Virus genome (UHGV): UHGV-0248979
DNA length: 64,000 nt
Origin: a virus
Reading direction: 5' to 3' (one strand)
In this document: piece by piece, positions 2,344 to 47,305 of the stretch
Layout: each line of letters begins with the position of its first letter
Position numbering within the stretch: position 1 is the first letter of the stretch
Program-made: the position numbers and the translations under genes
The notes under the pieces: model-generated
Databases searched by the model: none
Told to the model about the DNA's origin: nothing
What the model saw: the letters and a program-made list of their open reading frames with translations, nothing else

Positions 2344-2820
2344 TTATAGCCCTAAGTGCGTGAGTGATAAAATAGGCTGTGTTTCACCTTTAATCGTCGC
2401 GAAGGAACGATACATTTCTGCGTTACTTGAAAAAACTTCGTTAGCAACGATACATTCACCCGTCTCTAAAGAAAGGAGATAAATGTAGTCGCTCCATACG
2501 CTTTGTACCAATACCCATTCGAGCGCGGTGTCATTTTCGCGTGTTGTCCGCAGGTGGTGAAAGTAAGGCCGGATTGCGTCGACCGCTGCATTAAAACGGC
2601 GATGATAAATTCGGGTTAAATCAAATGTCCAGATTGTTTCCAGGTCAACTGGGTGTAATGTGCGCACAGTGTCGATAATCGTCGACTGATCGTTAAGGCG
2701 TGCGGCTTCAGCGATGCGCAGCAGTTTCCAGGCCACCGTTAAGTTGTGACGAATTTGTTCAGGTTTAGCCGACAGGTCATGATGAAATTGCGCAGCTTGA
2801 TAGACGTTAGATAATTGCAT
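2344..2820 (-). CDS. hypothetical protein (158 aa)
   Basis: ORF track; flanked by terminators. Confidence 0.55.
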   Translation of the reverse strand: MQLSNVYQAAQFHHDLSAKPEQIRHNLTVAWKLLRIAEAARLNDQSTIIDTVRTLHPVDLETIWTFDLTRIYHRRFNAAVDAIRPYFHHLRTTRENDTALEWVLVQSVWSDYIYLLSLETGECIVANEVFSSNAEMYRSFATIKGETQPILSLTHLGL

Positions 2821-2849
2821 TTTAATACTCCTTTAGGTAAAACATGTCG

Positions 2850-2878
2850 TAAAAAAGGACCCCGGACATTCCGGGGTC
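2850..2878 (-). terminator. rho-independent terminator
   Basis: GACCCCGG-ACATT-CCGGGGTC hairpin plus T6 on minus strand after gene 2889..3278. Confidence 0.6.
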
Positions 2879-2888
2879 AAGACTACAC

Positions 2889-3278
2889 TCAATGATCTAA
2901 TTCGATAGCGCCAGCCATCTTGCCCCGTTCTTCGATAACGATCAGATAACGGTCGCGAGATTTGCTTTTAGCGAGAGTTAAGACAACAGTAGGGTCGCAC
3001 GTTTTCGTGGTGATAGGAAGAACCTCTCTTGCAACGGAATCGAGTAGAAAGTAATAACCTGCGGGACACATTGTGCCACCATCAGCTTTTACCAGAATAT
3101 AGCGCCCGTCTGCGCCGACTTCTTGGCAGATTGTTTCACCGACTTCACAAACTTCAAACCCCGGGGGATTATACTGATAATCGGTATTGTTGTTTGAGGT
3201 TAGCAGTAAATCATTAACCTGGGTAGATGCCGCTACACTCAGGGAGAAGAAGAATGCTAAAGCGCAGATGAGACGCAT
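2889..3278 (-). CDS. small secreted protein (N-terminal signal peptide, Cys-containing)
   Basis: N-terminus MRLICALAFFFSLSVAAS hydrophobic signal-like; 129 aa. Confidence 0.5.
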   Translation of the reverse strand: MRLICALAFFFSLSVAASTQVNDLLLTSNNNTDYQYNPPGFEVCEVGETICQEVGADGRYILVKADGGTMCPAGYYFLLDSVAREVLPITTKTCDPTVVLTLAKSKSRDRYLIVIEERGKMAGAIELDH

Positions 3279-3288
3279 GAGTTACTCC

Positions 3289-3699
3289 TTAAATTTTAAG
3301 TTTATCCATAGCTACAACGATAGGTTTTTCCGAAGTGTCTAATATCCCTACCATCGGTACACCATTTTTGATTTCGAAGAACGGTTTGTTATTGCCAGAG
3401 CACAAACGTTTGTCGTTGTATTCGAGACGTTGTGCCTTCCACGTTTCGAGGTTGAGTACGGACATAGGGCTGTCGTAGCACCAGGCCCCACCCTGCTCAA
3501 CGATGAACACGTATCTGCTACCTTTGTATTTAAACAGGCTCTTCGCCTGACAGTACAGGCCGTCAATTTCTGTACAGTAGAAATCGTCGGCACTATTGAC
3601 GTACTTAATTCCAGCTGGCAACTGTGTTATTTTTGCTGATACGTTAACAGAGAACAGAATAGCAATTGCAATGAGAAGAGTGTTGATGATAGTTTTCAT
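3289..3699 (-). CDS. small secreted protein (signal peptide)
   Basis: N-terminus MKTIINTLLIAIAILFSVNVSA; 136 aa. Confidence 0.5.
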   Translation of the reverse strand: MKTIINTLLIAIAILFSVNVSAKITQLPAGIKYVNSADDFYCTEIDGLYCQAKSLFKYKGSRYVFIVEQGGAWCYDSPMSVLNLETWKAQRLEYNDKRLCSGNNKPFFEIKNGVPMVGILDTSEKPIVVAMDKLKI

Positions 3700-3709
3700 G
3701 ATAAACTCC

Positions 3710-4195
3710 TTAGTATTTAGATTGTTCTACGTACTTCTTAACCAGATAACCGAATTCAGCAACGCCGATTTCGCCGAACCAAACCAGATAACCGGGGTCG
3801 ATGTTGTAGTAATAACCGACGAGTTTCTTGGTGTGTGGGTTGTATAGCGTTACGATATATTCCCAGCCACAAGCGTTAGCTTTACAACCACCACTTTCAA
3901 TCCAGATTTTGTTGTTGATATTTACCGGATACATGTTACCGCCAGGGCCATCCATGTAACCTTTAGAGCCGAACATTCCATCCAGTCCCACCGGATCTAG
4001 TGTTTTATCAACAACACCTTTAAATGACTTATCGGTATCGTACAAGTCGTTGATGTTTGGACACGCATTTGGCTGACCTTCCCGAGCGTTCCCATCGCAG
4101 GTAAGCAATTCGTCTACGGAGGCCGCATCTACAGTAGGTGTGGCACCGATAAACAAGAAAACCAGAAAGAACATCAGTGTATGTAAACGTTTCAT
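3710..4195 (-). CDS. small secreted protein (signal peptide)
   Basis: N-terminus MKRLHTLMFFLVFLFIGATPTVDAAS; 161 aa. Confidence 0.5.
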   Translation of the reverse strand: MKRLHTLMFFLVFLFIGATPTVDAASVDELLTCDGNAREGQPNACPNINDLYDTDKSFKGVVDKTLDPVGLDGMFGSKGYMDGPGGNMYPVNINNKIWIESGGCKANACGWEYIVTLYNPHTKKLVGYYYNIDPGYLVWFGEIGVAEFGYLVKKYVEQSKY

Positions 4196-4213
4196 TGTGA
4201 CTACTCCTTTAGA

Positions 4214-4606
4214 TTATTCAGCAGGACGATTTAAAGTAACACGGCCAATTAATTCGGCGTTATGAAAGAAGTCCACAGCGGTATAGTTACCAACTGATAA
4301 CGGATGTATGCTAACCGACATGACTTTTGGTTGTTCACAGGCGATATCGGTCAAACGTTGGTAGACTTGTGCACGGGTGTCAGCAATGAGTAATCCTGTA
4401 CATGTTTCACCACGTACTAAACGATAAACTTGCAGTTTACCGAAACTGCGCATTAACGTAGGTGTCTCATCCGGGTTGATAATCGGTGAGTCAGGAGCGG
4501 GTTCGTAATGGTTGACATCCGAACCGCCGAAAGCGTAAGTGCCAGTAATGCCGATTGCACAGAAAACAATGATAGTATAAAGTATAGTTCTAATATTCAT
4601 TTTCAC
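4214..4606 (-). CDS. small secreted or membrane-anchored protein
   Basis: N-terminus MKMNIRTILYTIIVFCAIGITGTYAFGG hydrophobic; 130 aa. Confidence 0.5.
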   Translation of the reverse strand: MKMNIRTILYTIIVFCAIGITGTYAFGGSDVNHYEPAPDSPIINPDETPTLMRSFGKLQVYRLVRGETCTGLLIADTRAQVYQRLTDIACEQPKVMSVSIHPLSVGNYTAVDFFHNAELIGRVTLNRPAE

Positions 4607-4628
4607 GCACTCTAAAAAAGATTAATAC

Positions 4629-5090
4629 TTATTTGTTAGGACGGGTGTGTCCACAGTTCTGGAAGAAAGTTTCAGATAGACGTTCGCCTTCTACGGTAAA
4701 GTTAGCGGCGTCATTACCATTGATACTCACGCTGAAATTTTTGGCATTACCGATAGCATTAACGAAAGCAACCCAAGCGAGTTCTGCTTTGTCACTACCA
4801 TCCACGGTAGGGATGTTATAGGTTTTGCCGTTTACGACAATATCCATCGTGTTATCTTCAGCGTTAGTTGCACCTACAGGTTCCCCGTAATACCAAACCA
4901 TGCGACCGTAAAATTTGCGATTCGCGGTTTCAGTGTCACAGTTGATAGACAGTCCGTTTCCGGTGGTGTCTTCGATTTCGTAAACTGCCTGACCAGGGTT
5001 CTGTATTTGTTCCCAGCTGTTGATAGCGGCGTGTGCAGTATTGAATCCGAAAGTTAAAATGGTTACTAAGAACGCGATAAAAGTTTTCAT
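4629..5090 (-). CDS. small secreted protein (signal peptide)
   Basis: Start moved to internal ATG at 5090 (AAGGAG RBS 6 nt upstream); N-terminus MKTFIAFLVTILTFGFNTAHA. Confidence 0.5.
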   Translation of the reverse strand: MKTFIAFLVTILTFGFNTAHAAINSWEQIQNPGQAVYEIEDTTGNGLSINCDTETANRKFYGRMVWYYGEPVGATNAEDNTMDIVVNGKTYNIPTVDGSDKAELAWVAFVNAIGNAKNFSVSINGNDAANFTVEGERLSETFFQNCGHTRPNK

Positions 5091-5136
5091 TGAAATGCTC
5101 CTTCGGGTTATGGGAAAGTTCCCACAAATCATGAAA

Positions 5137-5508
5137 TTAAATGAGAAAGTGGGCAACTCTTTTAATCTGTCTATAACTATCATCGATACCTCTTATTATT
5201 TCCAGACGTTCTTCTGAAGAAAGGCATTGGTTAATGTCTTTGTCAAGATTGAACAATGTCATGAGTTTTGCAATCGAAACTGCCAGGTTGTCCGATAGCT
5301 CGTTGTTTTTACGCCATTCTTCGTTACGGAAAATACAGATAAGGTCTTTCACCTGGTTTTCAGCGAGCGGTTTGGCTAACTGTGCGTCGCGCTGTTCGAG
5401 AAGGTATGCTTCGTTGGTAAGTAATTGTTTCAGGTCTTCTGGGTAAAGGGCAGCGCGAGTAACGATCAGTAATACAACAAACGGGTCTTTGAACAATTCG
5501 TTTTTCAT
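5137..5508 (-). CDS. hypothetical protein (124 aa)
   Basis: Start moved to ATG at 5508 preceded by AGGAGA RBS; the longer ORF-track N-terminus is read-through of the conserved leader hairpin. Confidence 0.5.
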   Translation of the reverse strand: MKNELFKDPFVVLLIVTRAALYPEDLKQLLTNEAYLLEQRDAQLAKPLAENQVKDLICIFRNEEWRKNNELSDNLAVSIAKLMTLFNLDKDINQCLSSEERLEIIRGIDDSYRQIKRVAHFLI

Positions 5509-5513
5509 CTTTA

Positions 5514-5580
5514 GTTCTCCTAAAATGGTTTCGTTAAGTGAGAGTAACTGAACTCTCACCTAAGTAATATATATCTGAAA
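5514..5580 (-). promoter_or_regulatory. conserved AT-rich box plus 5' leader hairpin cassette (putative phage promoter/leader)
   Basis: TCAGATATATATTAC box followed by GTGAGAGT-loop-ACTCTCAC hairpin then RBS; about 65 bp near-identical to 43040..43107. Confidence 0.4.
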
Positions 5581-5600
5581 TTATTTTTAATGTTGACGAA

Positions 5601-5632
5601 CAAAAAATAAAAGGTGGGGGTAAACCCCCACC
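5601..5632 (-). terminator. rho-independent terminator
   Basis: GGTGGGGG-TAAA-CCCCCACC hairpin plus T-tract on minus strand after gene 5637..6215. Confidence 0.6.
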
Positions 5633-5636
5633 GACG

Positions 5637-6215
5637 TTATACATCGAACCGATACTGCCGGGAGTTAATGAGGAACTCAGTATTCAGCTCAATCCATTCG
5701 AGTAAATCCCCCAACGGTAATCGGTTTGGGTTTTCTAACTCGATAGATGCAACCGGATAAGAGTTTACTAATTCCGTAATCGCCTCAATGCCCTCTTGCG
5801 TTCCATCGTCTTCTAAGGTGATTGTAAACGGCATATCGGTACGTTCCGCATTAGGATTGTACAAACTGACTTTCGTTGCTTGCACAAACGCAGTCAGGTC
5901 GTCTCGCATAATGCGAATATCTGGCGCTAGAACTACCCAGAGATGTTGCCCTGGCTGGAGTTTACGTTTTGCGTAGTTTACGAAAGGACTTGCCGTCAAG
6001 TTATCTAAACCACAACAGATGTTACGTAAACGAATTCCGCGCGGATCTTTGTAATCCACGTCGAAAATCCCCACAGGTTCATTCGCTGCCCGCTTTATCA
6101 GAAAGGCTAATACCGTGTCCGCTCTTTCTGGTAAGGAAAGCTCTATTCCCTCAAGCTCCCCATCGACGAGATTTTCTAACCAAACGTCTTTTCGCATTTC
6201 TATTAATCGGTACAC
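5637..6215 (-). CDS. hypothetical protein (192 aa)
   Basis: ORF track. Confidence 0.5.
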   Translation of the reverse strand: MYRLIEMRKDVWLENLVDGELEGIELSLPERADTVLAFLIKRAANEPVGIFDVDYKDPRGIRLRNICCGLDNLTASPFVNYAKRKLQPGQHLWVVLAPDIRIMRDDLTAFVQATKVSLYNPNAERTDMPFTITLEDDGTQEGIEAITELVNSYPVASIELENPNRLPLGDLLEWIELNTEFLINSRQYRFDV

Positions 6216-9710: not shown

Positions 9711-9947
9711 ATAATGCCCCCTACCCCCTACCGGTATCCCGAGTAGCAGAATAAAGGGACAGACTGTAAAATTTTAGTACCTGTTATCGGAAGGTACTAA
9801 ATGGAGTGTAGTCTTTAAGCCGTTTGTGCAGCTCATTGAGACTTTCTTTTTTTAGTAGACATGATCTGTCTCCCCAAATGGTTTAATCAATCCGTTTCGA
9901 ATGAAACGTGTCCGTAGGGGCTGAACTGGCACTTCAGTCCCTATTCA

Positions 9948-9969
9948 CTTAAGTAATATATATCTGAAA
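9948..9969. promoter_or_regulatory. AT-rich conserved box (TAAGTAATATATATCTGAAA)
   Basis: Same box as at 5561, 43089 and 47330; lies 27 bp upstream of plus-strand gene 9996 and about 370 bp upstream of minus-strand gene 8839. Confidence 0.35.
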
Positions 9970-12759: not shown

Positions 12760-15700
12760 ATGGCTGTCGTCTTAGACCCACACTTCAAAAAACCGGGGAA
12801 TAAAATAACCGGTGAAGCGGTCGCCGTCATTGGTACGAAATACCGAATGTTGGTACCTGCCCACGCCCCTTTTTTCACCACATCCCTGGTGGTCAAGAGC
12901 GGCGGCAAAATACTGACCTTAGGCGACGATTACGTTATTACACACCCGTACGAGACTGGTATGTTGCGCACAGCCTATCTCATTCACGGGATGATTTGGA
13001 TTGTTAATGACAAATACAAATCGAACTTTACTGTAGATTACCATGCCGTTGGTTGTGGTGAAGCAACCCAAGAGCAGATTACCGCAGAGCGCGAGCTTAA
13101 TAAAGGTAAATACCCCTCCGCGTGTCAGTGGGACACCGTCATCGGAGACGTTTACTTTCCACCGGTCGATATCCAGTTCGATTGGGAGAATTGGAAAGGT
13201 GAACTGGAGCTAATGCAGGCCATTGCTGGGGTAGGCGATTCGTTAGGGGAAGTCGTGAGTCGTCTTAACCCAATCGCACGCAATACACTGGATTTGGAAT
13301 ATCGTGCTAATAGCAAGGTTATCACTTCCGAGCAGTATGCTGCGTACGATAATAAAGGCGGTTTCACCTACAACACAGCTCGCCACCGTTATAGCCTGAG
13401 TTATAAAGCGACAACCTTTAACAACTATTCCCTGTCGGTGAAACACAGAATTCCTGCTATTCTGCCGGACATGACAAAGTTGAATCCGAACGAGCAGATC
13501 GATTGGATGCTCTGTTATGCCAACGGTGGTGCAAGCATTCTACGGTTGCAGCTAAAACAGCGCAAAATCTCACTGGTCTTAACTGTCGCTATTGGAAGCG
13601 GTTCATCAAACTACGATTATACTTTAATCAACGGTTTAACTGACGATGAGTTAAAAAACGATATCGATTTTAGTGTAACCCGACAACCCGGAAACGGCGT
13701 TTACGTAATCGTAGTAAAAACAAATAAACAGACCATGGATTATACGTTCAACGTCGATACGCCACCTGATGAGTTCTCGGCAGGGTATTCGAAAACGGAT
13801 GTAGCCAAATGGTTGAAGTCTAAAACGAACATTAACCTGAACTGGTATGCGGCTGAAAACGATAATGTTCAAATTCGTTCTTTACCCGGTGCGCCGGAGC
13901 CTGACGTTGATAACGATGTTTACCAGTTAATAGTTAAGTATCATCAGTTGGTTGAGCAGCTGTATCGTAATGCGCCTGCGCACGAACACGTTACACGTAA
14001 GGACAACCCACACACAGATACGTGGGGTCCGATCCGTGCGTTAGAGTTGAACGGTATTGCGTCGGATGCAGCATTAGCTTACGGAAAAACGAAGCCGCAG
14101 TTAACGGATTATGTTAATGCTAAGTATCCAACACAAGCGACGCTGACAGCACAAAAGAAACTATTGCGCACGTCAGCTACGAAAACGGCTAACGGAACTA
14201 TTGGAACGCTGCCCGGTTTTACTTCGTTCACGACGGAAGTTGACCCGGTGTCAATGTCGAAATACGTGAGTCCTCGTTTTAGCGAAAGCTACGTTAGTAA
14301 TGGTCACAGGTATCACGGTGCGCTTCGTTACACAGGAACGAAGAGTGGATTCGCCACTTCTTTTAATGCGGTACCTGCTAACCTGCAAGATATTGACTTT
14401 ATTGTTACCGGACGTAAAACAGCGTCTGGTAATGAAGCTGTCGGTACGGTTAGCCTACGTTTCTATCAGAAACCTGGTACTAACTCTGGAAAATTTATCC
14501 AGCTTACAGGTGAAATTTCTGCGGGTAAAGTCGGCGTTAAGTTGGAACTGAACGGTTTTTCGAATCCCACACCGGAAGTTCAGTATCTTTCCCAAGCTCC
14601 TAATCCAGCAATACCGGATGGGGATTTTACGCTGCGTTTTCAACTGAAACGCACAGGGAACGTGTTTGATGTCGTTATTACCATAAACGGCAAGACATAC
14701 AGTGCACGTGTTAACTTCACTAACATGGACGCTGCACTAGAAGCATTGGAGAATAGCCACCACTTTAAATCATTGATCAGTAATGTTGCTGACAATGTCA
14801 CTATTAGCTCGGGGAATAAAGGTAACACGGTTACCATTAAGAAAGCGCCCGACGTCGTTGACGGGACCCGTTTAGGTGCCCAGTTTGTCGTTGACCCGAA
14901 ATCCATTAAGTTTATTGGACAAGGTTCAACCGAGGTTAATGCGGGGAATAACCCTGTAACGTTTCAAGCAGGTACTAACCAACTTATATTGTATCCTGAT
15001 GATCGTGGGTTACAGTGGCGTGGTAAGAAACTCTTAGACCCCACTACCGTGGCTCCGTATCTGCCAGGCAATACCGCGGGCGGTACGGGATTATTCTACG
15101 GTACATCTACAACCACGGTAGAACTTACCGGTAGCGGGATAAAAGCATCGCCGTTCGTAGCGACTTTTATTCTCCCTACCGCGACTGATACAACAGCCCT
15201 GGCAGCTTGGCAGTTGACCGATGAGTTTGGTACCGCTGAAAACCTTGCAGCAACGCCAGCACTGATTGAAAAACTCGATGCGGAGTTCACCGGTAAATTA
15301 GTTGCGGTTAAATCGTACATTAACGACATGCAACTTACCAGCTCGGTCACTATCGACAAAATTACCTTTGGTTTAGGTAACGTTGCGAATACACCCGATG
15401 TCAATTTACCGATTTCTACAGCACAACGTGCGGAGTTAGATAAATACTCGCCTAAAGTTCACCAACACCCGTTTACCGCTTTTGGTACTGGGAACGCAAC
15501 CACAGCGAAACGTGGTCTGATTAAATTTGGTCTGGATGTGGATGATGCGACTTTAGCACTCGATGGGAGTGTGGTAATGGCGCAGACTTCCCAGATTGAA
15601 AAATTGGAAAATGCTGTCGGTGGCGTTGACTCGGGTGCTCGCGTTGACATTATTCGTTTCGGCAAGTCTGGTGACGACTTAATTAACGTTACGGTTAAAG

Positions 15701-17082
15701 ACAAAATTCTGGCTATGCTCCCCGCTTCAACGTACTTTGTTGGTGGTGAGACGTATGACGTACCGTTAATGTCGGTTAACGTCACTGAACGTTTCCCGAA
15801 TCCGAAAACGTTGATCTACGCAGGAATTTTTGTTGATATTGTTGACAACAAAGCGAAGTATGTTATCCACGACAGCTACAATCAGGCTGAAACGGATACC
15901 ATGACGCGCGTGGGAAGACTCGTTGTCAATGAGCTTTCCGAAGTGGACGTAGTGGAATTGCGTAACGTGACACGATTAGGCGAATTCCACGAGCTGAAAG
16001 ACCACATCGCTAATGACAACGCACACATTCAACGTTCTGCTTCGCGTGCAGTATTGGGGTTAAGTGATTTAACAGTAGGTGCACCTTGCTGGGCTTCTGG
16101 ACTCCAGGCAGTAGTGCGTGGTGAAGCAGATTGGCGTTATGTTGTTCGTGGACAGTATAAAGCCTTAGACGGGGTGAAATACGACCAGATCGCATCAAAG
16201 TGGATTTTCGATGCGAAAGGGGTAAGTGACAACGTTCACGGGTTTATTCACAACTTATTCCCGACTTTCAAAAACGCAGGAATGCGGGTAAGTTGGGAAA
16301 CAGAAAGCAACGCAAAAACCGGAACAGTGTTAGAAACTGTTTTAGGTTGTTGGAAGAACACCGACGGCGAGTTTATGCGGTTGTCATTACTTATCACTCG
16401 CGGTTATCGTTTAACTGACAGTAACGGTGAATATTGTTACGCAGGGTTCGGTTTGAACTTCGGTAGCGGGAAATCGGTAGTGGTAGGTTTCACACCAACG
16501 AAGCGTGTTACGCCTGCACCGTGGAGTTCATTACGACCTGACGTAACGTTTACCCACACCCGTGGTGCAAACAACGCAATAACGTTTAATGCATCGCTGA
16601 CTTTAGCTGGCACTGTGTATACTATCGTGGTGTTTTTATCCGCGACAGATAAATACGTAAGCTGTACGGCGGCAGGGGGAACTACGCAGAAAATCCCATT
16701 AGCCGACCGTTTAACCGGGTTCAATATCGAACCTATCGTTAATGATCCGTATACCCCTATTTACTACGGTTTAGGGGGACTTTATGAGGATGAGGTTCGT
16801 GCCAACATCCGCTCTACAGCAGACAGCGCAACTGCGAACAAAGTCTACGGTACGTTGTTGGACTATGTTAGCAACTATTCCTCATTAAATCGAGTACGCG
16901 TCATGGAATTGTCCGGTGTCAGCTCAGACCCCGAAACGCTTAATGCGTTAGTGGCAACTGAATTTAATAACAACCTGGCAGATTACGCTGCGTTACCGAT
17001 ACCTCCTTATCTTAACAAGGAGCGCGTAATGTCGTTTATCGACACCGACAATAAAGTGCAGGCGGTAATCATTCGCGATTAA
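12760..17082 (+). CDS. large virion structural-type protein (1440 aa), possible tail fiber/baseplate component
   Basis: AGGAG RBS; shares N-terminal P..PF(F/Y)...L.V....G.DY.L motif with the next three genes; size and operon context. Confidence 0.55.
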   Translation: MAVVLDPHFKKPGNKITGEAVAVIGTKYRMLVPAHAPFFTTSLVVKSGGKILTLGDDYVITHPYETGMLRTAYLIHGMIWIVNDKYKSNFTVDYHAVGCGEATQEQITAERELNKGKYPSACQWDTVIGDVYFPPVDIQFDWENWKGELELMQAIAGVGDSLGEVVSRLNPIARNTLDLEYRANSKVITSEQYAAYDNKGGFTYNTARHRYSLSYKATTFNNYSLSVKHRIPAILPDMTKLNPNEQIDWMLCYANGGASILRLQLKQRKISLVLTVAIGSGSSNYDYTLINGLTDDELKNDIDFSVTRQPGNGVYVIVVKTNKQTMDYTFNVDTPPDEFSAGYSKTDVAKWLKSKTNINLNWYAAENDNVQIRSLPGAPEPDVDNDVYQLIVKYHQLVEQLYRNAPAHEHVTRKDNPHTDTWGPIRALELNGIASDAALAYGKTKPQLTDYVNAKYPTQATLTAQKKLLRTSATKTANGTIGTLPGFTSFTTEVDPVSMSKYVSPRFSESYVSNGHRYHGALRYTGTKSGFATSFNAVPANLQDIDFIVTGRKTASGNEAVGTVSLRFYQKPGTNSGKFIQLTGEISAGKVGVKLELNGFSNPTPEVQYLSQAPNPAIPDGDFTLRFQLKRTGNVFDVVITINGKTYSARVNFTNMDAALEALENSHHFKSLISNVADNVTISSGNKGNTVTIKKAPDVVDGTRLGAQFVVDPKSIKFIGQGSTEVNAGNNPVTFQAGTNQLILYPDDRGLQWRGKKLLDPTTVAPYLPGNTAGGTGLFYGTSTTTVELTGSGIKASPFVATFILPTATDTTALAAWQLTDEFGTAENLAATPALIEKLDAEFTGKLVAVKSYINDMQLTSSVTIDKITFGLGNVANTPDVNLPISTAQRAELDKYSPKVHQHPFTAFGTGNATTAKRGLIKFGLDVDDATLALDGSVVMAQTSQIEKLENAVGGVDSGARVDIIRFGKSGDDLINVTVKDKILAMLPASTYFVGGETYDVPLMSVNVTERFPNPKTLIYAGIFVDIVDNKAKYVIHDSYNQAETDTMTRVGRLVVNELSEVDVVELRNVTRLGEFHELKDHIANDNAHIQRSASRAVLGLSDLTVGAPCWASGLQAVVRGEADWRYVVRGQYKALDGVKYDQIASKWIFDAKGVSDNVHGFIHNLFPTFKNAGMRVSWETESNAKTGTVLETVLGCWKNTDGEFMRLSLLITRGYRLTDSNGEYCYAGFGLNFGSGKSVVVGFTPTKRVTPAPWSSLRPDVTFTHTRGANNAITFNASLTLAGTVYTIVVFLSATDKYVSCTAAGGTTQKIPLADRLTGFNIEPIVNDPYTPIYYGLGGLYEDEVRANIRSTADSATANKVYGTLLDYVSNYSSLNRVRVMELSGVSSDPETLNALVATEFNNNLADYAALPIPPYLNKERVMSFIDTDNKVQAVIIRD

Positions 17083-17095
17083 GGAGAATTTTTTG

Positions 17096-20000
17096 ATGAA
17101 AGCGTATCCTTACGATCCTCGGGGGACGAAAACCGAGAATCACTTCTTAGAGGAGCGTATCATCGGGTCAGAAAACAACAACGATCGGGTGGTGATTTTA
17201 GACCATCGCCCGTTCTTTGAAGATTTAGTCGTCAGACAACCAGGTTCAACCACCCCACTGAGTCGTGGGGTGGACTACGAACTGCAATATCAGCTGACGG
17301 AACTGGATGACTCGGTAGCAGCCAACGTGTATTGTGGGGTACACCTTATCAACCCTTCCATCAAAGGCATCGTAACCTTTGAAGGACAAATGCTCGGCGG
17401 TACGTTCTACGACCCGTTTGTTGATATTCTCGATGAGCTGGTGAAATATTTGAATAACCCAGTCAGCGCTGACTGGTTGTTATTAGAAGGCAGACCGTCG
17501 TTATACCCGGCTACGCCTGCGGCAACGTCTTGGGCGGATTTGCTAAACAAAAAATATTTAGCGTCGGCAGTCCACGATGTTGAATTGAAAACCGATGACG
17601 CTAACCAGTTAATTAAAGATAAATTAGCCGAAGTTAAAGCGTTAGTCGCCGCGCTGGGTAAAGAAATCGAGACATTTAACTACCCGGCACACATCGCGGA
17701 AACCAACCCGCACCAAACCACTTCTGCACAGATTAACGCACATCCTGTTAACTTGAAAACACCCGACACCTTTATGGCGTACGGGTTAAAGTTGAAAGCA
17801 TTGACGGATGAGCTGAAAGCGTTTCGTTTACCACAGTCAGTTATTGACACGTATATCTCCCACTGGATTTCTTCAGAAGTACGGGGTGTGTTTAACTGTA
17901 CGGTGTCAGGAAACCGTGCACAGTTCCGCTCAAAAAACGGTGAGTCAGAAATCATTTTTGCGAATGATGGCTTTACGTTAAAATCCAACGGTTCTGTAGT
18001 GTTAGCGGTAGGGCATCTGGAAGGAACGGGTGCAGGACGTTACATTAACTGGCGTGCTGGTAAAAACATCCTACGTATCGAGTCAACAGGCGATGCTTTA
18101 GGGATGAACAAACTCACCCTAAACGGTAACCCGTTACTGACCACCACAGCATTGATGGAATACCAACAAGATCCTGATGCTGGCGGGAGCGGTGGCGGTG
18201 ACCCCGACGACTCAAAGGTGTACATCGAAGGCCGTAATGGGATTAGCTTCACCGGTAAAGGCTCTCGGACCGATCCTATCGTGGGTACTATCGACCCGAC
18301 GAAAGCGACAACCACTGAAAAAGGTGTTGTTAAGCTTAAAACTGGTAAAGGTACAGAAATCGTTGGGGTTGCAGCAACTCCGGCTTCGTTAGCGCCATAT
18401 GCGACCGACCTATCGGGGTATGTGGCTAAAACGACCATGATTAACGGTAAGCCAATGAATGACGGCTCCAGGACAATCACGAAAGCTGACCTGGGGTTAG
18501 GGCAAGCGGATAATACCGCAGATCTTGACAAACCGTTGTCAACCAAGTTAACTGAGGCGGTTAGCGGTCTAGCAGATGTGGGCCATCATCACGATTGGTC
18601 GGAGTTAGGTATTTATAAAGCTTCTCAATCTGTTTACGGTATTGGTCGTTATGCAACTAACCAGAACGGTTTGGTTGAAAACCGTGCAGTGGTACCGAAC
18701 ATCCTAAAAGAGCTTTCGGCACGTTTAAGTGTGGTCGCTGCGGCAATTGCAAATGCGAAAGAAGGAACAGTCACGGATTTCGCTGCTGTAAAAGGCGCAG
18801 ACTGGCGATTTAATAGCCAGGGTACGGCAATCTCCGTTCAGGATTTGAAATATTTCTATTTGCTGGACGGCACGAAAGGTGACAGTACCGTTACCGGTGC
18901 GATTGACCTGCAAACCACTCCGATGTTTAACTGGTTCTCACCGAACAACCAACTTGAGCTGACTTGGCCTACGGGTAAGGTGAGTAAAGGTACCGGGATT
19001 AGTTGGGATGGAATTGTTGATCCCCCAACAATGGGGTTTCAGTCAGTTCCGGTAGGTAAAAGCGCCACCCAGATGGGCGTTCAGTCCGTTGTATCGGTAC
19101 TGGCTAAAACGCGCGTCAAAGCTCGTCAGAAAAGGCTGTTTGTTTATGCCGCTGGCGGTGGGACAATAACCGTTTATGTAAATGGTGTTGTAGGCGCTAC
19201 TGGTGCGTCGCCATTGTTAATGAACTATGGAACGTCTCCAGATGTTGAAAACTACACAATTGCTGTTAAAGCAGAGTGTAGTGACACGGCTAAATCTGCA
19301 GCGGTACAGTTCGAAGTTTACGATGGTGACTACCCCGTTTATTTCAGTGGTCCTGAAACGCGTGTAGAGCTTCTCCAGGAGTTTGTCACAACGCATGTAG
19401 GTATTCGTCATTATTTGTACGTTAACATGCTCACAGGCTCTCTGTATTCGCGTGCTGAACCAGTTCAAGGATTTGAGGTCGATCCAGAACGCGGATATAT
19501 CGGTTATGTTGATATCGTTCCTGGTCAGTCTTACGCGAATAAAACCGTGGGATTTGAAACCACGTTTGATTTCGGGAAAAGTGCGGAAGTTAGCGAGCAT
19601 AATAGTATTCGTAAGGCACACGGTCTCAACGCTGCGGACTGGTCACTGACGGATAACCCACGGTTGCCGTTATTAAACCGTGCTATTGCCGAACCAAGAG
19701 CGTGTATCTTTAGGAAACCGTTAGCAACCGCTACAGGGGATGTTTTCCATCTTGTCAGTCGTGGTCTTTATACTTACGCACACAACCAAAACGTGAAGTC
19801 GAGTCTTCAATACGTTGTGATACCTGAAGGTGCTACGCCGTATTGTTGGTTTACACCATTTAACCCGAAAGAAAACAACGCACCGACATTCGAAGGCTCG
19901 TTTGCGTTCGATGTTGACGATGTTGGTGGAACGCAAGCCCTTGCTGCTGCGCCGGATTTGGTTCTATGCACGTCAACGCAAGGTAGCAGCGTTAAACGTC

Positions 20001-21277
20001 GCTATCTGCGCATTGACCTAACTACCAAAACCTGTAAGTTGGGGATTGGTTCCCGTTCAGATTCTGCTGTTACGGATATTCCGTTAGTGATGGAGGAGTC
20101 TGGGGAAACGGCAGTGGCCGCAACGTTTAAGGATGTGTTGTTCAACGGTGAGGAAACCAACGCGGCGACGCTCGACTTGATAGGTTGGGGTGCCAGCCGA
20201 GATAAAATTTCTGCAAACCATGCACCTCGTGGCATGATTCGCTATCGTTACAACGTAAACAGTCGGGTATTACGTTTAGCACTGACGTTCTCACAGTTCG
20301 GAACGACAACAGTTAAACATCGACAGCTGGAGATTCAATTCCCGTTCGATTTAGTGGATTATTTCACTGGCGACGGTGTGGGATTGTCGTTTAAAGAACT
20401 GTCTGCGAAATGCCGTGTAACGATTAGTCACGCGCTGATTGATCCGGCTACGAGTAACGTCGACATTGATAAGTACCATTACTTACGTTCGTTGTTCGAA
20501 TCGTATCTGGATTCGTCCGTTGGGTATTTGGCTGATACCAAAGACGTTGATTTTAGTCAGACTGTGATTGACCCCGCGACTTATGAGATTAGTCAGAAAT
20601 ACCGCGTTACAGAAAGCATCGCGCTGCCAACCGGCCAGGGAAGTGTTGCTGTTTCACATGACGGTCAGTTGCCTGCGCAGTTCTTTGACCGTAAGCTGTC
20701 TCGTGGTGCCTTGATGGCCAAGAAAGGTGAACTCAACGCTTCCTGGAATAATGAGTGGAGCACGACTAAAGCTGCTGCGAGTCGTTATCGCCATAAACTC
20801 ATTCTACGCTTTGCACAAGGTGCTGATAAACAGCAGTATCGCGTTGCAAAAGTGGCCGGGACGGTGAAGTCTAACTGGCCGGGTAAAGTGATTATCGGTG
20901 ATGCCGGGAAGGACCCGTATGTATCGGCTATTGATAGCGTATCTTTTGCGCTTTCGACCGCCTCTGATACAGGTAAAGCGATTACTCTTACGCCAAAGGA
21001 CTTACGTGTAGGTCAGGACATTTATATTGTCTTAGAACCGCCCGGCAATAATCCGGAAGGTTATGAACTTAACTTTACCTGTTCGTTAGATGTCACTGAC
21101 GAGAAAAGTGTCCGTCAAGATCAACTCAATGCACAGAGTTTCGAACTCCGTAGCGGCGAAAGTCAGTTCTTAATGGAGAAACGCAACCCGTACCACATCA
21201 CGAGTAAAGCGTGGAAGTGGATTCTGGCTGTACTGAAACGAGAACTTAACGGGAAGCAGTTAGGGGATCGTACTTAG
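17096..21277 (+). CDS. large virion structural-type protein (1393 aa)
   Basis: ATG at 17096 after AAGGAGA RBS; shared N-terminal motif; GHHHDW and Gly-rich linker segments. Confidence 0.55.
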   Translation: MKAYPYDPRGTKTENHFLEERIIGSENNNDRVVILDHRPFFEDLVVRQPGSTTPLSRGVDYELQYQLTELDDSVAANVYCGVHLINPSIKGIVTFEGQMLGGTFYDPFVDILDELVKYLNNPVSADWLLLEGRPSLYPATPAATSWADLLNKKYLASAVHDVELKTDDANQLIKDKLAEVKALVAALGKEIETFNYPAHIAETNPHQTTSAQINAHPVNLKTPDTFMAYGLKLKALTDELKAFRLPQSVIDTYISHWISSEVRGVFNCTVSGNRAQFRSKNGESEIIFANDGFTLKSNGSVVLAVGHLEGTGAGRYINWRAGKNILRIESTGDALGMNKLTLNGNPLLTTTALMEYQQDPDAGGSGGGDPDDSKVYIEGRNGISFTGKGSRTDPIVGTIDPTKATTTEKGVVKLKTGKGTEIVGVAATPASLAPYATDLSGYVAKTTMINGKPMNDGSRTITKADLGLGQADNTADLDKPLSTKLTEAVSGLADVGHHHDWSELGIYKASQSVYGIGRYATNQNGLVENRAVVPNILKELSARLSVVAAAIANAKEGTVTDFAAVKGADWRFNSQGTAISVQDLKYFYLLDGTKGDSTVTGAIDLQTTPMFNWFSPNNQLELTWPTGKVSKGTGISWDGIVDPPTMGFQSVPVGKSATQMGVQSVVSVLAKTRVKARQKRLFVYAAGGGTITVYVNGVVGATGASPLLMNYGTSPDVENYTIAVKAECSDTAKSAAVQFEVYDGDYPVYFSGPETRVELLQEFVTTHVGIRHYLYVNMLTGSLYSRAEPVQGFEVDPERGYIGYVDIVPGQSYANKTVGFETTFDFGKSAEVSEHNSIRKAHGLNAADWSLTDNPRLPLLNRAIAEPRACIFRKPLATATGDVFHLVSRGLYTYAHNQNVKSSLQYVVIPEGATPYCWFTPFNPKENNAPTFEGSFAFDVDDVGGTQALAAAPDLVLCTSTQGSSVKRRYLRIDLTTKTCKLGIGSRSDSAVTDIPLVMEESGETAVAATFKDVLFNGEETNAATLDLIGWGASRDKISANHAPRGMIRYRYNVNSRVLRLALTFSQFGTTTVKHRQLEIQFPFDLVDYFTGDGVGLSFKELSAKCRVTISHALIDPATSNVDIDKYHYLRSLFESYLDSSVGYLADTKDVDFSQTVIDPATYEISQKYRVTESIALPTGQGSVAVSHDGQLPAQFFDRKLSRGALMAKKGELNASWNNEWSTTKAAASRYRHKLILRFAQGADKQQYRVAKVAGTVKSNWPGKVIIGDAGKDPYVSAIDSVSFALSTASDTGKAITLTPKDLRVGQDIYIVLEPPGNNPEGYELNFTCSLDVTDEKSVRQDQLNAQSFELRSGESQFLMEKRNPYHITSKAWKWILAVLKRELNGKQLGDRT

Positions 21278-21315
21278 GACAGACTGCCTGCGGGCAGTTG
21301 TGTGTCCGTAGGTAA

Positions 21316-21352
21316 CCCCTCCCTGTAATGGGGAGGGGTATCCATTTTATTT
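21316..21352 (+). terminator. rho-independent terminator
   Basis: CCCCTCCC-TGTAAT-GGGGAGGGG hairpin followed by ATCCATTTTATTT. Confidence 0.6.
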
Positions 21353-21371
21353 AAAAGTAGGAGTCTTTACG

Positions 21372-31226: not shown

Positions 31227-32165
31227 ATGGACTCACCTGCAATGACAACCGACGTAGAGCCAAGGTTATCGAATCGTTTATACAATAAACCCACCGTATT
31301 GTCCGTAGTTGCTACATCCAAATGTAATCTGGACTGTAGCTTCTGCGGCGGAGCCTATTACATGCATCGTGAAGATTCTCCGCGAGAGTTTCAACGTGAA
31401 CGAATTTTGAAAGCGTTGGCGTCTAACCCAACCATTACTGAAATTCAGTGGACTGGCGGTGAACCGCTACTGGCAACTCGAAAGATTGAGGCGTTTGTCG
31501 ACGAATTAAAAACGATCCGTCCTGAACTCAAACACCAGATGTTCACGAACGGTTTAAAAATGCGTAAATCGCATCTACCGTTGTTAAAACAATTCGATGG
31601 TATATATGTTAGCATCGATGGGTTTAATCTTTCTGAACGGCCTTTTAAGCGCTTTATTGATGATAATTGTCATGAAGCGTTAGAAGTAATTTACAGCTTG
31701 AATAATGTTAACACCTGGGCTGTTGTTACGAGGGAGAATTTATCCAATAAAAGATGGCATGAAGATATCATTCAATTACATACTGCTATCTATCATTACG
31801 GTTTTCGTTCCATGTCCTTATTACTAGATAAAAACATGCCAAAACCGTTATCTCCCGATCACGTTATGAACTTTATTTACGGGTATTTTAGAATTCAGGA
31901 GAATATAGAAAGATTAAACGTTCTAAATTCTAGAGACTGCGGTTTTATTGTAAACAGATTCTTCGATCATGCTTGTAATGTCTGTAGCGAAAGTCTCAGG
32001 ATAGACGCGGACGGGGAAGAAAACCAACTTAAAAATGTACCAATAACTACAAAAGCAGGGTGTAACCAACTAGCCTCCTCAATAGGTGTAGAAGCTTACG
32101 AGTACATTCGTCGTGTAGTGATGGCAGAGCGTAATAGAGGGGCGGAAAATGAGTCAAGAAAATAG
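31227..32165 (+). CDS. radical SAM enzyme 2 (paralog of enzyme 1)
   Basis: CNLDCSFCGG motif; three blocks of identical nucleotide sequence shared with 28278..29192. Confidence 0.7.
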   Translation: MDSPAMTTDVEPRLSNRLYNKPTVLSVVATSKCNLDCSFCGGAYYMHREDSPREFQRERILKALASNPTITEIQWTGGEPLLATRKIEAFVDELKTIRPELKHQMFTNGLKMRKSHLPLLKQFDGIYVSIDGFNLSERPFKRFIDDNCHEALEVIYSLNNVNTWAVVTRENLSNKRWHEDIIQLHTAIYHYGFRSMSLLLDKNMPKPLSPDHVMNFIYGYFRIQENIERLNVLNSRDCGFIVNRFFDHACNVCSESLRIDADGEENQLKNVPITTKAGCNQLASSIGVEAYEYIRRVVMAERNRGAENESRK

Positions 32166-35854: not shown

Positions 35855-35994
35855 TGTTTTTACCTCGTAAGTAGTATGGGTGGTTTGCATAGTATTGTTC
35901 GGATTATAGAAGTGGTGTTAATAGTTATGACAGGCGGCAGAAGGGTTGCTTGTAAAATTAATTAACTTTAACTTTTTTATAAAAGGTGAAAAGT

Positions 35995-47276: not shown

Positions 47277-47305
47277 CTAATCCTCCTTTTCGGCTATAAC
47301 TAATG

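What the first reader, a model, noticed from the sequence alone, without database searches (positions are those of the whole stretch)
2889..5090. Array of five consecutive small secreted proteins
Five adjacent minus-strand genes (129-161 aa) each begin with a classical hydrophobic signal-peptide-like segment and contain conserved Cys residues. A run of exported small proteins in a phage is a candidate host-envelope manipulation or superinfection-exclusion module.
Basis: partly seen in the sequence, partly recalled or inferred. Interest (0 to 1): 0.45.

Follow-up and report, generated by a model that had tools for sequence, protein, structure and literature searches.

The report
Phage operon of five periplasmic proteins
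Five neighbouring genes of a giant SPN3US-like phage do encode small proteins exported to the host periplasm; one is a relative of the bacterial lysozyme / lytic-transglycosylase inhibitor Ivy, so the set probably shields the infected cell's wall, for example against a second phage.

Summary
Five tightly packed minus-strand genes (2889-5090) each start with a Sec-type signal peptide, and each mature protein has an even number of conserved cysteines. They are the last five genes of a six-gene operon. A phiKZ-type AT-rich promoter motif (5551-5591) heads it and an intrinsic terminator (2858-2878) closes it.

The five are not one family:
- **w1 and w2** (perhaps w4) belong to a phage-only, four-Cys, all-beta family. 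It is conserved as an array in all SPN3US-like jumbo phages (SPN3US gp180-183).
- **w5** is a YkfB/YfjT homologue.

Copies of w3, alone or with w2, sit in CP4-type islands; up to 45% of complete E. coli genomes match this stretch. No w3-like gene was found in 50,697 phage records.

Best reading: an early periplasmic module whose Ivy-like member blocks a peptidoglycan glycosidase. The target is most plausibly the tail lysin of incoming phages, as with T4 Spackle. Export and Ivy homology are well supported. The target and the biological role are inferred.

The parts
5613..5632 (-). Intrinsic terminator that closes the preceding transcription unit (after gene 5637-6215)
   Evidence: 8-bp, 7-GC stem followed by TTTTATTTTT.
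5551..5591 (-). Conserved promoter-like motif ...AAAAATAATTTCAGATATATATTACTTAGGTGAGAG, of the phiKZ-type AT-rich class
   Evidence: This is the only stretch of the region with DNA similarity (93-100%) to SPN3US, phiEaH2 and related phages. The same motif occurs four times in the window, always on the minus strand ahead of gene blocks. A copy heads the unit that holds the cassette in 9 of 11 related loci, including SPN3US directly upstream of gp180. It matches the promoter consensus listed for phiKZ (TATATTAC) and 201phi2-1 in PMC7058600 Table 2. The AT-rich class is associated with early genes (PMC11512511).
5534..5563 (-). 12-bp hairpin in the predicted 5' leader
   Evidence: RNA fold -20 kcal/mol, z = -3.9 against shuffles. 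A near-identical copy follows the motif at about 43099.
5137..5508 (-). wC, first gene of the operon, 123 aa, no signal peptide (cytoplasmic); function unknown
   Evidence: AGGAG Shine-Dalgarno plus ATG at 5508. Matches phrog_27024. Absent from the cassette of some close relatives, where the promoter sits directly before w5.
4629..5090 (-). w5, 153-aa precursor (signal peptide residues 1-21, AHA|A), 2 Cys in the mature part; YkfB/YfjT-family secreted protein
   Evidence: Signal-peptide heuristic. phrog_3429, E 1e-6. 27% identical to E. coli YkfB over 130 aa, pairwise E 2e-14. Found only in this phage clade, not in SPN3US or phiEaH2.
4214..4606 (-). w4, 130-aa precursor (probable true start is the ATG at 4600; signal peptide to TYA|F), 2 Cys in the mature part; orthologue of SPN3US gp180
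   Evidence: 50% identical to SPN3US gp180 and 47% to the phiEaH2 orthologue. phrog_9424, E 5e-41. Present in all 11 related loci. Kinship to w1/w2 is only hinted at: a PHROG cross-hit of E 2.6e-3 but hhalign not significant. A pseudogene remnant sits in E. coli islands.
3710..4195 (-). w3, 161-aa precursor (signal peptide residues 1-24, VDA|A), 4 Cys; divergent Ivy-family protein
3869..3886 (-). Codons for the CKANAC disulfide loop of w3 (C104-C109), the counterpart of Ivy's inhibitory CKPHDC loop
   Evidence: Translation. HMM alignment to 1gpq/1xs0 places CKanaCG on CKPHDCG. The loop lies between strands 72-81 and 88-95 of the model. A C-x4-C loop is present in 27 of 28 relatives; His is at position 4 in 23 of them, Asn here.
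3289..3699 (-). w2, 136-aa precursor (signal peptide residues 1-22, VSA|K), 4 invariant Cys; orthologue of SPN3US gp182 and paralogue of w1
   Evidence: phrog_8968, E 2e-30. 28% identical to gp182. hhalign on mature regions: F2-F3a 96%, F1-F2 81%. Four Cys are aligned across 21 sequences (3 invariant, 1 in at least 90%). A 64-76% identical copy lies next to the w3 homologue in E. coli islands.
2889..3278 (-). w1, 129-aa precursor (signal peptide residues 1-17, VAA|S), 4 invariant Cys in the mature part; orthologue of SPN3US gp183
2858..2878 (-). Intrinsic terminator that closes the operon, 11 nt after the w1 stop codon
   Evidence: 9-bp, 7-GC stem followed by CTTTTTT.

Best explanation
Region 2889-5090 is the distal part of a six-gene operon (about 5591 to 2858, minus strand) of an uncultivated SPN3US-like jumbo phage of Enterobacteria. 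A conserved phiKZ-type AT-rich promoter motif, of the early class by analogy, drives it. An intrinsic terminator ends it.

The five genes encode Sec precursors. The signal peptide is cut off and the small domains fold with disulfide bonds in the host periplasm.

The set is a mixed toolkit:
- w1, w2 and possibly w4 are members of a phage-specific four-Cys all-beta family.
- w3 is an Ivy-family protein.
- w5 is a YkfB/YfjT-family protein.

Proposed mechanism: soon after infection these proteins fill the periplasm. w3 binds a peptidoglycan glycosidase and plugs its active-site cleft with the protruding disulfide-closed CKANAC loop, as Ivy does with CKPHDC.

The most likely target is the muralytic domain of the tail puncturing device of phages that attack the already infected cell. 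That would give superinfection exclusion and resistance to lysis from without, the job T4 Spackle does with an unrelated fold. The other four proteins probably bind further envelope targets.

My confidence by step:
- exported periplasmic proteins: 0.9
- w3 is an Ivy homologue: 0.9
- w3 inhibits a peptidoglycan glycosidase: 0.55
- the role is exclusion of other phages: 0.3-0.35

Shown here: gene structure, signal-peptide features, family relations, fold, and distribution. Inferred: export, timing, activity, target and phenotype.
For: **Signal peptides and cysteines**
- All five proteins pass the signal-peptide heuristic, and they are nearly the only ORFs in the window that do.
- 46 of 48 orthologues pass too, and mature Cys counts are always even.

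**Operon structure**
- Terminators flank the unit. Gene gaps are 10-46 nt with AGGAG sites.
- The repeated promoter motif is linked to the cassette in SPN3US and 8 other related loci.
- The motif matches published phiKZ and 201phi2-1 promoters (PMC7058600), a class tied to early genes (PMC11512511).

**w3 is an Ivy homologue**
- The AlphaFold2 model was built from an alignment with no Ivy sequences.
- The topology, helices plus a 5-stranded sheet plus a C-terminal helix, fits the published description of Ivy (PMC2267010).
- A profile search of 1.84 billion proteins gave 53 hits; 25 of the 28 proteins scanned match Pfam Ivy, best E 7.6e-12.
- The C-x4-C loop aligns with CKPHDC.

**What Ivy does**
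- Ivy inhibits C-type lysozyme and also lytic transglycosylases (PMC10139938, PMC3660660).

**Plausible targets exist**
- phiKZ-type phages carry a tail-tip glycosidase, gp181 (PMC5380687), and a lytic-transglycosylase endolysin, gp144 (PMC12894885).

**Precedent**
- T4 Spackle is an early, periplasmic, disulfide-bonded inhibitor of the tail lysozyme gp5 (PMC7677548).

**Stand-alone value in bacteria**
- w3-like genes, with w2-like or with a w4 remnant, are kept under purifying selection in E. coli CP4-type islands. Up to 2451 of 5426 complete genomes match this stretch.
- In these islands the genes sit just upstream of the DUF932, antirestriction and toxin-antitoxin genes.
Against: **Export not confirmed.** No trained signal-peptide predictor was available. 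Cleavage and export are inferred.

**w3 does not meet curated family thresholds.**
- No Pfam hit at all.
- NCBIfam Ivy scores 18 bits against a cutoff of 180.

**The loop histidine is missing.** It is conserved in 23 of 27 relatives and central to Ivy's inhibition (from my own knowledge of Abergel 2007; that paper is not held). In w3 it is Asn. Activity or specificity may therefore differ or be lost.

**Models are only moderately confident.** pLDDT is 70-72, from shallow alignments of 7 and 21 sequences.

**SPN3US and phiEaH2 lack w3.** They have a w1/w2 paralogue at that position, so the Ivy function is not the conserved core of the array.

**The early class of the promoter is inferred by analogy.** No transcript data exist for this phage.

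**No muralytic gene was found in the window.** The target could not be examined.
Confidence: 0.5

Rival explanations
1. Lysis-timing or wall-homeostasis control for the phage's own benefit. The periplasmic proteins, w3 in particular, would restrain host lytic transglycosylases or leaked phage endolysin. The very large infected cell would then not lyse before the long jumbo-phage cycle is complete. The role would resemble an antiholin or anti-autolysin, not exclusion of other phages.
For: - Ivy and MliC dampen host lytic transglycosylases and help E. coli survive excess activity of these enzymes (PMC10139938).
- The phiKZ-type endolysin is a lytic transglycosylase (PMC12894885).
- T4 uses a periplasmic, signal-peptide-bearing antiholin, RI (PMC8385771).
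- The same Ivy homology applies.
Against: - The array is not next to any holin, endolysin or spanin gene, and has no lipobox or coiled-coil protein as in the phiKZ lysis cassette (PMC12894885).
- The promoter motif is of the AT-rich class linked to early genes, not late ones (PMC11512511).
- Retention of w3 and w2 in E. coli islands without any phage lysis genes is hard to explain by lysis timing, though it fits wall homeostasis.
Confidence: 0.2
2. Envelope manipulation unrelated to peptidoglycan hydrolases. The proteins would bind outer-membrane receptors, Tol-Pal/TonB, periplasmic proteases, or envelope-stress or defence sensors. The effect would be to mask receptors, counter a host defence or compete with other mobile elements. 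w3 would keep the Ivy fold but have a new partner.
For: - The catalytic-site-binding His of the Ivy loop is replaced by Asn.
- Four of the five proteins have no link to muralytic enzymes.
- w5 is a homologue of YkfB/YfjT, which sits beside YfjS/YafY lipoproteins in CP4-type islands and IncHI plasmids, among antirestriction, toxin-antitoxin and Lit-type exclusion genes.
- w1-w3 diverge much faster between phage sub-clades than w4-w5, as expected in an arms race.
Against: - No positive evidence for any specific alternative target.
- The C-x4-C loop, the Lys after the first Cys and the flanking strands are retained.
- His-to-Asn or His-to-Gly variants occur sporadically in otherwise typical family members.
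Confidence: 0.2
3. The hydrophobic N-termini are uncleaved membrane anchors. The proteins would be inner-membrane components of a phage structure, such as the early infection vesicle of nucleus-forming jumbo phages or an assembly or virion component, and not soluble periplasmic factors.
For: - w4 and its orthologues have long (about 20 residue) uncharged segments with a conserved Cys inside.
- Membrane-bound early vesicles are described for phiKZ-like phages (bioRxiv 10.1101/2023.12.31.573766 and 10.1101/2024.03.24.586471, titles and abstracts seen).
Against: - All five have small residues at -3 and -1 right after the hydrophobic core.
- N-terminal positive charge predicts the C-terminus faces out.
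- The domains carry paired cysteines, and w3 belongs to a family of soluble periplasmic proteins.
- SPN3US gp180-183 are absent from the text of the held SPN3US virion-proteome papers.
Confidence: 0.07

Closest known systems
Ivy (inhibitor of vertebrate lysozyme; E. coli YkfE, P. aeruginosa Ivyp1/Ivyp2; Pfam PF08816; PDB 1gpq, 1xs0, 1uuz)
   Different: - Only 12-15% identity to solved Ivy structures, and below the curated Pfam and NCBIfam cutoffs.
- The loop is CKANAC, so the His is replaced by Asn.
- It has an extra N-terminal Cys pair (C...CP) typical of a CPY...CExHNC subfamily.
- It is encoded by a lytic jumbo phage and by E. coli CP4-type islands, not as a chromosomal housekeeping or Rcs-regulon gene.
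- Its target is unknown.
T4 Spackle (gp61.3), periplasmic superinfection-exclusion inhibitor of the tail lysozyme gp5
   Same: Both are phage-encoded, small, exported through a cleaved signal and disulfide-bonded. Both are, or are predicted to be, expressed early. The proposed mechanism is the same: blocking a muralytic enzyme in the periplasm (PMC7677548).
   Different: Spackle is an alpha-helical bundle that acts allosterically and is unrelated to Ivy (PMC7677548). w3 is an alpha/beta Ivy fold, and w1/w2 are all-beta. No sequence or fold relation exists, so the similarity is functional analogy only and is untested.
SPN3US gp180-gp183 and phiEaH2 AFQ96649-96652 (PHROGs 9424, 8968, 5248), annotated 'hypothetical protein'
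   Same: w4, w2 and w1 are orthologues in the same order and position: upstream of the gp184, gp185 and SbcC-like genes, and behind the same promoter motif.
   Different: SPN3US and phiEaH2 have a fourth paralogue (gp181) where this phage has the unrelated Ivy-like w3. This clade adds w5, and sometimes wC, upstream. More distant relatives (L010-L013) have only the trio.
E. coli YkfB / YfjT (CP4-6 and CP4-57 cryptic-prophage proteins of unknown function)
   Same: w5 is 27% identical to YkfB over 130 aa (E 2e-14). It has the same length, a signal peptide and a conserved Cys.
   Different: In bacteria and IncHI plasmids the gene follows a YfjS/YafY lipoprotein gene. In the phage it heads an array of unrelated secreted proteins. 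No function is known for either; the genes are still listed among the E. coli 'y-ome' in PMC11551758.
PliC/MliC, PliI and PliG periplasmic lysozyme inhibitors
   Same: Small, beta-rich, signal-peptide or lipoprotein periplasmic proteins, often with a stabilising disulfide (PMC2267010, PMC7677548). This is the general description that w1, w2 and w4 also fit.

Membership tests
Ivy family (Pfam PF08816 / NCBIfam NF007443), for w3 | N-terminal Sec signal peptide, periplasmic location | tested here: met
   MKRLHTLMFFLVFLFIGATPTVDA|A: n-region charge +2, hydrophobic-core Kyte-Doolittle score 3.3, VDA at -3..-1. This is a heuristic only; no SignalP was available.
Ivy family (Pfam PF08816 / NCBIfam NF007443), for w3 | Direct match to the curated family model above its cutoff | tested here: not met
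   w3 has no Pfam hit at E up to 10. NCBIfam NF007443 scores E 1.8e-3, 18.2 bits against a cutoff of 180. The 60-65% identical E. coli homologues score 14-17 bits against Pfam Ivy, whose cutoff is 21.
Ivy family (Pfam PF08816 / NCBIfam NF007443), for w3 | Homology through intermediate sequences | tested here: met
   A profile of the w3 family searched against 1.84 billion proteins gave 53 hits. Of the 28 aligned full-length proteins, 25 match PF08816 at E 0.01 or better, best 7.6e-12. A profile search of the PDB returned Ivy (1gpq, 1xs0) among only 3 hits.
Ivy family (Pfam PF08816 / NCBIfam NF007443), for w3 | Ivy fold: five-stranded antiparallel sheet, two short helices on one side and an amphipathic helix on the other | tested here: met
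   [not shown]
Ivy family (Pfam PF08816 / NCBIfam NF007443), for w3 | Protruding disulfide-closed C-x4-C loop between two strands (CKPHDC in Ivy) | tested here: met
   C104-KANA-C109 aligns with CKPHDC. It lies between strands 72-81 and 88-95 of the mature model. C-x4-C is present in 27 of 28 relatives.
Ivy family (Pfam PF08816 / NCBIfam NF007443), for w3 | Histidine at loop position 4, which contacts the lysozyme catalytic residues | tested here: not met
   w3 has Asn107 (CKANAC). His is present in 23 of 27 relatives, including the E. coli island homologue P0073 (CKAHAC). w3 is therefore a homologue, but not a canonical CKPHDC-type lysozyme inhibitor.
Ivy family (Pfam PF08816 / NCBIfam NF007443), for w3 | Inhibition of C-type lysozyme and/or lytic transglycosylase | not testable with these tools
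   This needs purified protein and muralytic assays.
T4 Spackle-type superinfection exclusion protein | Alpha-helical bundle homologous to gp61.3 | tested here: not met
   The w3 model has an Ivy alpha/beta fold and the w1 model is all-beta. None of the five proteins matched a family annotated as Spackle or exclusion in PHROGs or Pfam. Only functional analogy is proposed.
T4 Spackle-type superinfection exclusion protein | Early expression, and exclusion or resistance to lysis from without | not testable with these tools
   Only a promoter motif of the AT-rich, early-associated class is seen (PMC11512511).
SPN3US gp180-183 secreted four-Cys beta family (PHROGs 9424, 8968, 5248) | Orthology, synteny, four aligned Cys in w1/w2/gp181-type members | tested here: met
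   PHROG E-values of 1.5e-30, 2e-30 and 5e-41. BLASTP and synteny. hhalign F1-F2 81%, F2-F3a 96%. Of the four aligned Cys in A2, three are invariant and one is at 90% or more. Whether w4 belongs to the same superfamily is inconclusive.
YkfB/YfjT family, for w5 | Sequence homology over the whole mature domain, signal peptide | tested here: met
   BLASTP 27% over 130 aa, E 2e-14. tblastn hits to annotated ykfB and to IncHI plasmid genes. No Pfam model exists for the family.
Phage lysis cassette (holin, endolysin, i-spanin, o-spanin, antiholin) | Lipobox o-spanin, coiled-coil type II i-spanin, adjacent endolysin or holin | tested here: not met
   None of the five has a lipobox. The w1 model is all-beta, not coiled coil. 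The neighbours are hypothetical proteins and SbcC. Compare the phiKZ cassette in PMC12894885.
Beta-propeller (blade fragments), for w1 | Four-stranded antiparallel blades able to close a propeller | tested here: inconclusive
   [not shown]

The most novel reading that the evidence does not exclude
The operon would be a portable 'periplasmic immunity' kit. The Ivy-like w3, helped by its neighbour w2, would neutralise the peptidoglycan-cutting tip of incoming phage tails. Under this reading, E. coli has repeatedly captured fragments of the jumbo-phage array (w4-w3 or w3-w2) into CP4-type islands, where they would act as a widespread, so far unrecognised anti-phage defence; up to 45% of complete genomes match this stretch. 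That would make Ivy-fold proteins a second, independent solution to the Spackle problem. It would also give a long-sought physiological role, phage tail lysins as targets, to at least part of the Ivy family.

A further possibility is that the w1/w2/w4 paralogues, each about two propeller blades, assemble into a hetero-oligomeric periplasmic propeller.
Probability: 0.2. Interest if true: 0.8.

Novelty: new variant of a known kind. Interest (0 to 1): 0.58.

Why it matters
**For phage biology.** Jumbo (phiKZ/SPN3US-like) phages are studied mostly for their cytoplasmic nucleus. What they do to the periplasm is essentially unknown. In the SPN3US and phiEaH2 GenBank records and the related records inspected here, the orthologues of these genes are annotated only as 'hypothetical protein'.

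**A testable handle.** One member is an Ivy-family protein. I found no such gene in 50,697 phage genomes and no such fold in BFVD. This makes the array testable: does a phage use a bacterial-type muralytic-enzyme inhibitor to protect the cell it has taken over?

**For E. coli.** The same genes are conserved under purifying selection in CP4-type islands; up to 45% of complete E. coli genomes match this stretch. The answer would therefore also assign a function to very common E. coli 'y-ome'-type genes, including the YkfB/YfjT relatives. It could reveal a new envelope-level defence or exclusion mechanism relevant to phage therapy with jumbo phages.

Tried and rejected
**Library scans with no result.**
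- Pfam, NCBIfam and PADLOC scans of all five proteins gave nothing above threshold. The only lead was the weak Ivy hit of w3.
- PDB sequence searches for the w1/w2 family, w5 and w3 alone gave no convincing hit. A ThreeFoil match (E 2.8e-4) reported 0 matched stretches passing the threshold on their own, and I discounted it.

**'Five copies of one family' rejected.** hhalign on mature regions links only w1, w2 and gp181-type proteins. w3 and w5 are unrelated, and w4 is not significant.

**Other classes rejected.**
- Lipoproteins or spanins: no lipobox.
- Tat export: no twin arginine, read directly from the sequences.

**SPN3US literature.** gp180-183 are not mentioned in the held virion and essential-gene papers or their supplement, apart from a CoreGenes table row and one synonymous SNP. 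The infection-proteome paper PMC6384053 and Abergel 2007 (PMC1847508) are not held.

**Other dead ends.**
- The afdb50 fold library was unavailable.
- BFVD search with the w3 model gave no match at E 0.001 or better.
- Rfam scan of the window gave nothing.
- Pfam and PHROG scans of the ORFs checked in the window (the largest ORFs and a few others) found tail-fibre and virion paralogues, a SASA esterase and a radical SAM enzyme, but no muralytic enzyme.
- Comparing signal-peptide and mature-region identity gave no useful contrast.


Full report
**1. The observation.**

The ORF listing shows five consecutive minus-strand ORFs at the stated coordinates:

| Gene | Coordinates | Length | Note |
|---|---|---|---|
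| w1 | 2889-3278 | 129 aa | |
| w2 | 3289-3699 | 136 aa | |
| w3 | 3710-4195 | 161 aa | |
| w4 | 4214-4606 | 130 aa | GTG start; the ATG at 4600 aligns better with orthologues |
| w5 | 4629-5090 | 153 aa | ORF extends to 5183, but only the ATG at 5090 has an AGGAG site |

No signal-peptide predictor was available, so I wrote a heuristic. It requires a positive n-region, a hydrophobic core, and small residues at -3 and -1. All five pass, with likely cleavage sites VAA|S, VSA|K, VDA|A, TYA|F and AHA|A.

Among 89 ORFs of at least 90 aa in the window, only these five, one lipoprotein and three doubtful ORFs pass. A run of five is therefore not chance. 46 of 48 orthologues from related phages pass as well, and the mature parts always carry an even number of cysteines: 4, 4, 4, 2 and 2.

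dN/dS between phage sub-clades is 0.07-0.22.

**2. Where the window comes from.**

At the DNA level, the only similarity of window 2500-5600 to any of 50,697 phage records is a 41-nt intergenic motif. At the protein level it is related to Salmonella phage SPN3US (Seoulvirus), Erwinia phage phiEaH2 (Erskinevirus) and their kin.

Near-identical uncultivated contigs of 221-225 kb exist in IMG/VR. Relatives also appear as 222-kb circular 'plasmids' in complete assemblies of a urinary E. coli and an Enterobacter ludwigii.

**3. Anatomy of the transcription unit.**

- A strong terminator (5632-5613) ends the preceding gene.
- Next comes the conserved motif ...TTTCAGATATATATTACTTAGGTGAGAG (5591-5551), followed by a 12-bp leader hairpin (z = -3.9).
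- Then come wC (5137-5508, no signal peptide), w5, w4, w3, w2 and w1, with gaps of 10-46 nt.
- A terminator at 2878-2858 closes the unit.

The motif occurs four times in the window, always on the minus strand ahead of gene blocks. In 9 of 11 related loci a copy heads the unit that contains the cassette; in SPN3US it lies directly upstream of gp180.

It matches the promoter sequences tabulated for phiKZ (TATATTAC) and 201phi2-1 (PMC7058600). AT-rich promoters of this kind are associated with early genes (PMC11512511). Early expression is thus inferred, not shown.

**4. The five proteins are a mixed set.**

PHROG scans place the proteins as follows:

| Protein | PHROG |
|---|---|
| w1 | phrog_5248 |
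| w2 | phrog_8968 |
| w4 | phrog_9424 |
| w5 | phrog_3429 (weakly) |
| w3 | none |

Synteny and BLASTP show w4, w2 and w1 to be orthologues of SPN3US gp180, gp182 and gp183.

Eleven related loci show three arrangements:
- A core trio, gp180-type, gp182-type and gp183-type, is present in all.
- SPN3US and phiEaH2 carry a fourth gene (gp181) between the first two.
- The window's clade has the unrelated w3 at that position and adds w5 upstream.

hhalign on mature regions links the gp182, gp181 and gp183 types (96%, 81% and 73% probability). It links none of them to w3 or w5. A 21-sequence alignment aligns four Cys, three invariant and one in at least 90%. w4 may be a distant member (PHROG cross-hit E 2.6e-3), but hhalign does not support this.

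**5. Fold of w1.**

**6. w3 is an Ivy-family protein.**

*First hints.*
- A weak NCBIfam hit to the Ivy family (E 1.8e-3).
- Sub-threshold Pfam Ivy hits of its E. coli homologues.
- RefSeq's name for an identical E. coli protein, 'Ivy family c-type lysozyme inhibitor'.

*Independent tests.*
- (b) A profile of the w3 family searched against 1.84 billion representatives found 53 proteins. Of the 28 proteins scanned (w3, an E. coli homologue and 26 full-length hits), 25 match Pfam Ivy, best E 7.6e-12.
- (c) The profile aligns w3's CKANACG with Ivy's CKPHDCG. The loop lies at a hairpin tip in the model.

*What is not met.*
- w3 itself stays below the curated cutoffs.
- The loop histidine, present in 23 of 27 relatives, is Asn in w3.

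w3 is therefore a homologue with the inhibitory architecture but possibly a different specificity.

*What Ivy does.* Ivy inhibits C-type lysozyme and also lytic transglycosylases (PMC3660660, PMC10139938).

**7. Distribution beyond phages.**

- tblastn finds no w3-like gene in the phage collection, and Foldseek finds no Ivy-like fold in BFVD.
- In contrast, 2451 of 5426 complete E. coli genomes match window 3258-4206 (w3 plus w2) at about 70% DNA identity.
- In O157:H7 the two genes lie side by side in a CP4-44-type island. They sit between RdcB/patatin genes and the DUF932, antirestriction, YeeS, YeeT and CbeA/CbtA genes.
- Another island variant has a w4 pseudogene remnant followed by the w3 homologue.
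- The E. coli w2 copy is 64-76% identical to the phage versions and nests within their diversity.
- The bacterial copies evolve under purifying selection, with dN/dS 0.15-0.22.

Because the w4 and w2 families are otherwise phage-specific, the simplest reading is that fragments of the phage array were captured by the islands and kept. w3 is the common denominator.

w5 has its own bacterial relatives. It is 27% identical (E 2e-14) to E. coli YkfB, which sits beside YfjS/YafY lipoprotein genes in CP4-6-type modules and on IncHI plasmids. No function is known for this family.

**8. How it most likely works.**

*Shown:* an operon of five signal-peptide proteins with paired cysteines; one Ivy homologue; a promoter motif of the early-associated class; retention of parts in bacterial islands.

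*Inferred:*
- The proteins are exported soon after infection.
- w3 blocks a peptidoglycan glycosidase with its disulfide loop.
- Candidate targets exist in this phage group. phiKZ carries a tail-tip glycosidase, gp181 (PMC5380687), and a lytic-transglycosylase endolysin, gp144 (PMC12894885).
- The precedent is T4 Spackle, an early periplasmic disulfide-bonded inhibitor of the tail lysozyme gp5 that gives superinfection exclusion (PMC7677548).

I therefore rank exclusion, or resistance to lysis from without, first. Next come control of the phage's own lysis or of host autolysins, and then an unrelated envelope target. The array does not look like a lysis cassette: it has no lipobox, coiled coil, holin or endolysin (PMC12894885).

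**9. Novelty and verdict.**

The kinds are known: periplasmic phage exclusion proteins, and Ivy-type inhibitors. The combination is not. I found no description of an Ivy-family gene in a phage, in the sequence collections or in the held literature. The SPN3US-type array is annotated only as hypothetical proteins.

I rate it a new variant of a known kind, with interest 0.58.

Noticed in passing
window 5551-5591, about 9925-9965, about 43060-43100 and about 47305-47345 (all minus strand): A repeated promoter-like motif, TTTCAGATATATATTAC(Y)TAGG. At two sites an identical 12-bp leader hairpin follows it. It is 93-100% conserved in SPN3US, phiEaH2, Asesino and related phages although the surrounding DNA is not alignable. 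It is probably the promoter of the virion RNA polymerase (early class).
   Followed up: partly
window 35986-36477 (+): A 163-aa ORF with a textbook lipoprotein signal, MKSMIKRFLIVMVGVFSLAG|C. It matches phrog_9559 (unknown function) and has no Pfam hit. It could be an o-spanin or an exclusion lipoprotein.
   Followed up: partly
NZ_CP173450.1 (locus L020) and NZ_CP134650.1 (hit H83): Circular 'plasmids' of 221,873 and 222,441 bp in complete assemblies of a urinary E. coli and an Enterobacter ludwigii are relatives of this jumbo phage. The E. coli record is 81% identical in DNA over the cassette; in the Enterobacter record the w5 protein is 90% identical. This could be a carrier state or pseudolysogeny, or co-sequenced phage.
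   Followed up: partly
L014:5687-5979; L019:8817-9926: E. coli CP4-type islands hold two different fragments of the phage array. One is a frameshifted w4 remnant plus a w3 homologue. The other is a w3 homologue plus a w2 homologue. In many genomes the w3 homologue is annotated fused in frame to an upstream 65-codon secreted-peptide ORF, giving 225-227 aa.
   Followed up: partly
proteins P0057-P0066 (Salmonella phages SPFM1, 6, 7, 8, 12, 14, 20): The gp181 and gp183 homologues of several SPFM phage records are block-scrambled versions of the SPN3US proteins, with segments in reversed order. This points to assembly or annotation artefacts in those records.
   Followed up: no
window 2889-4195 compared with 4214-5090, against L005: Divergence is mosaic between phage sub-clades. 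w1, w2 and w3 differ strongly (dS 0.8-2.0; 64-81% amino-acid identity) while w4 and w5 are close (dS 0.3-0.5). This suggests recombination or faster turnover in the w3-w1 part.
   Followed up: partly
window 12760-26558 (+): Three consecutive giant paralogous virion structural proteins of 1440, 1394 and 1728 aa (PHROGs 7557, 8078, 7449). They cross-match each other.
   Followed up: no
window 32149-33471 (+), 47400-49520 (-), 51483-55922 (-): A radical SAM enzyme; a SASA-type carbohydrate esterase with DUF6645; and a 1479-aa tail fibre with a T4 gp34-like trimerisation domain and an S74 chaperone domain.
   Followed up: no
[not shown]
   Followed up: no
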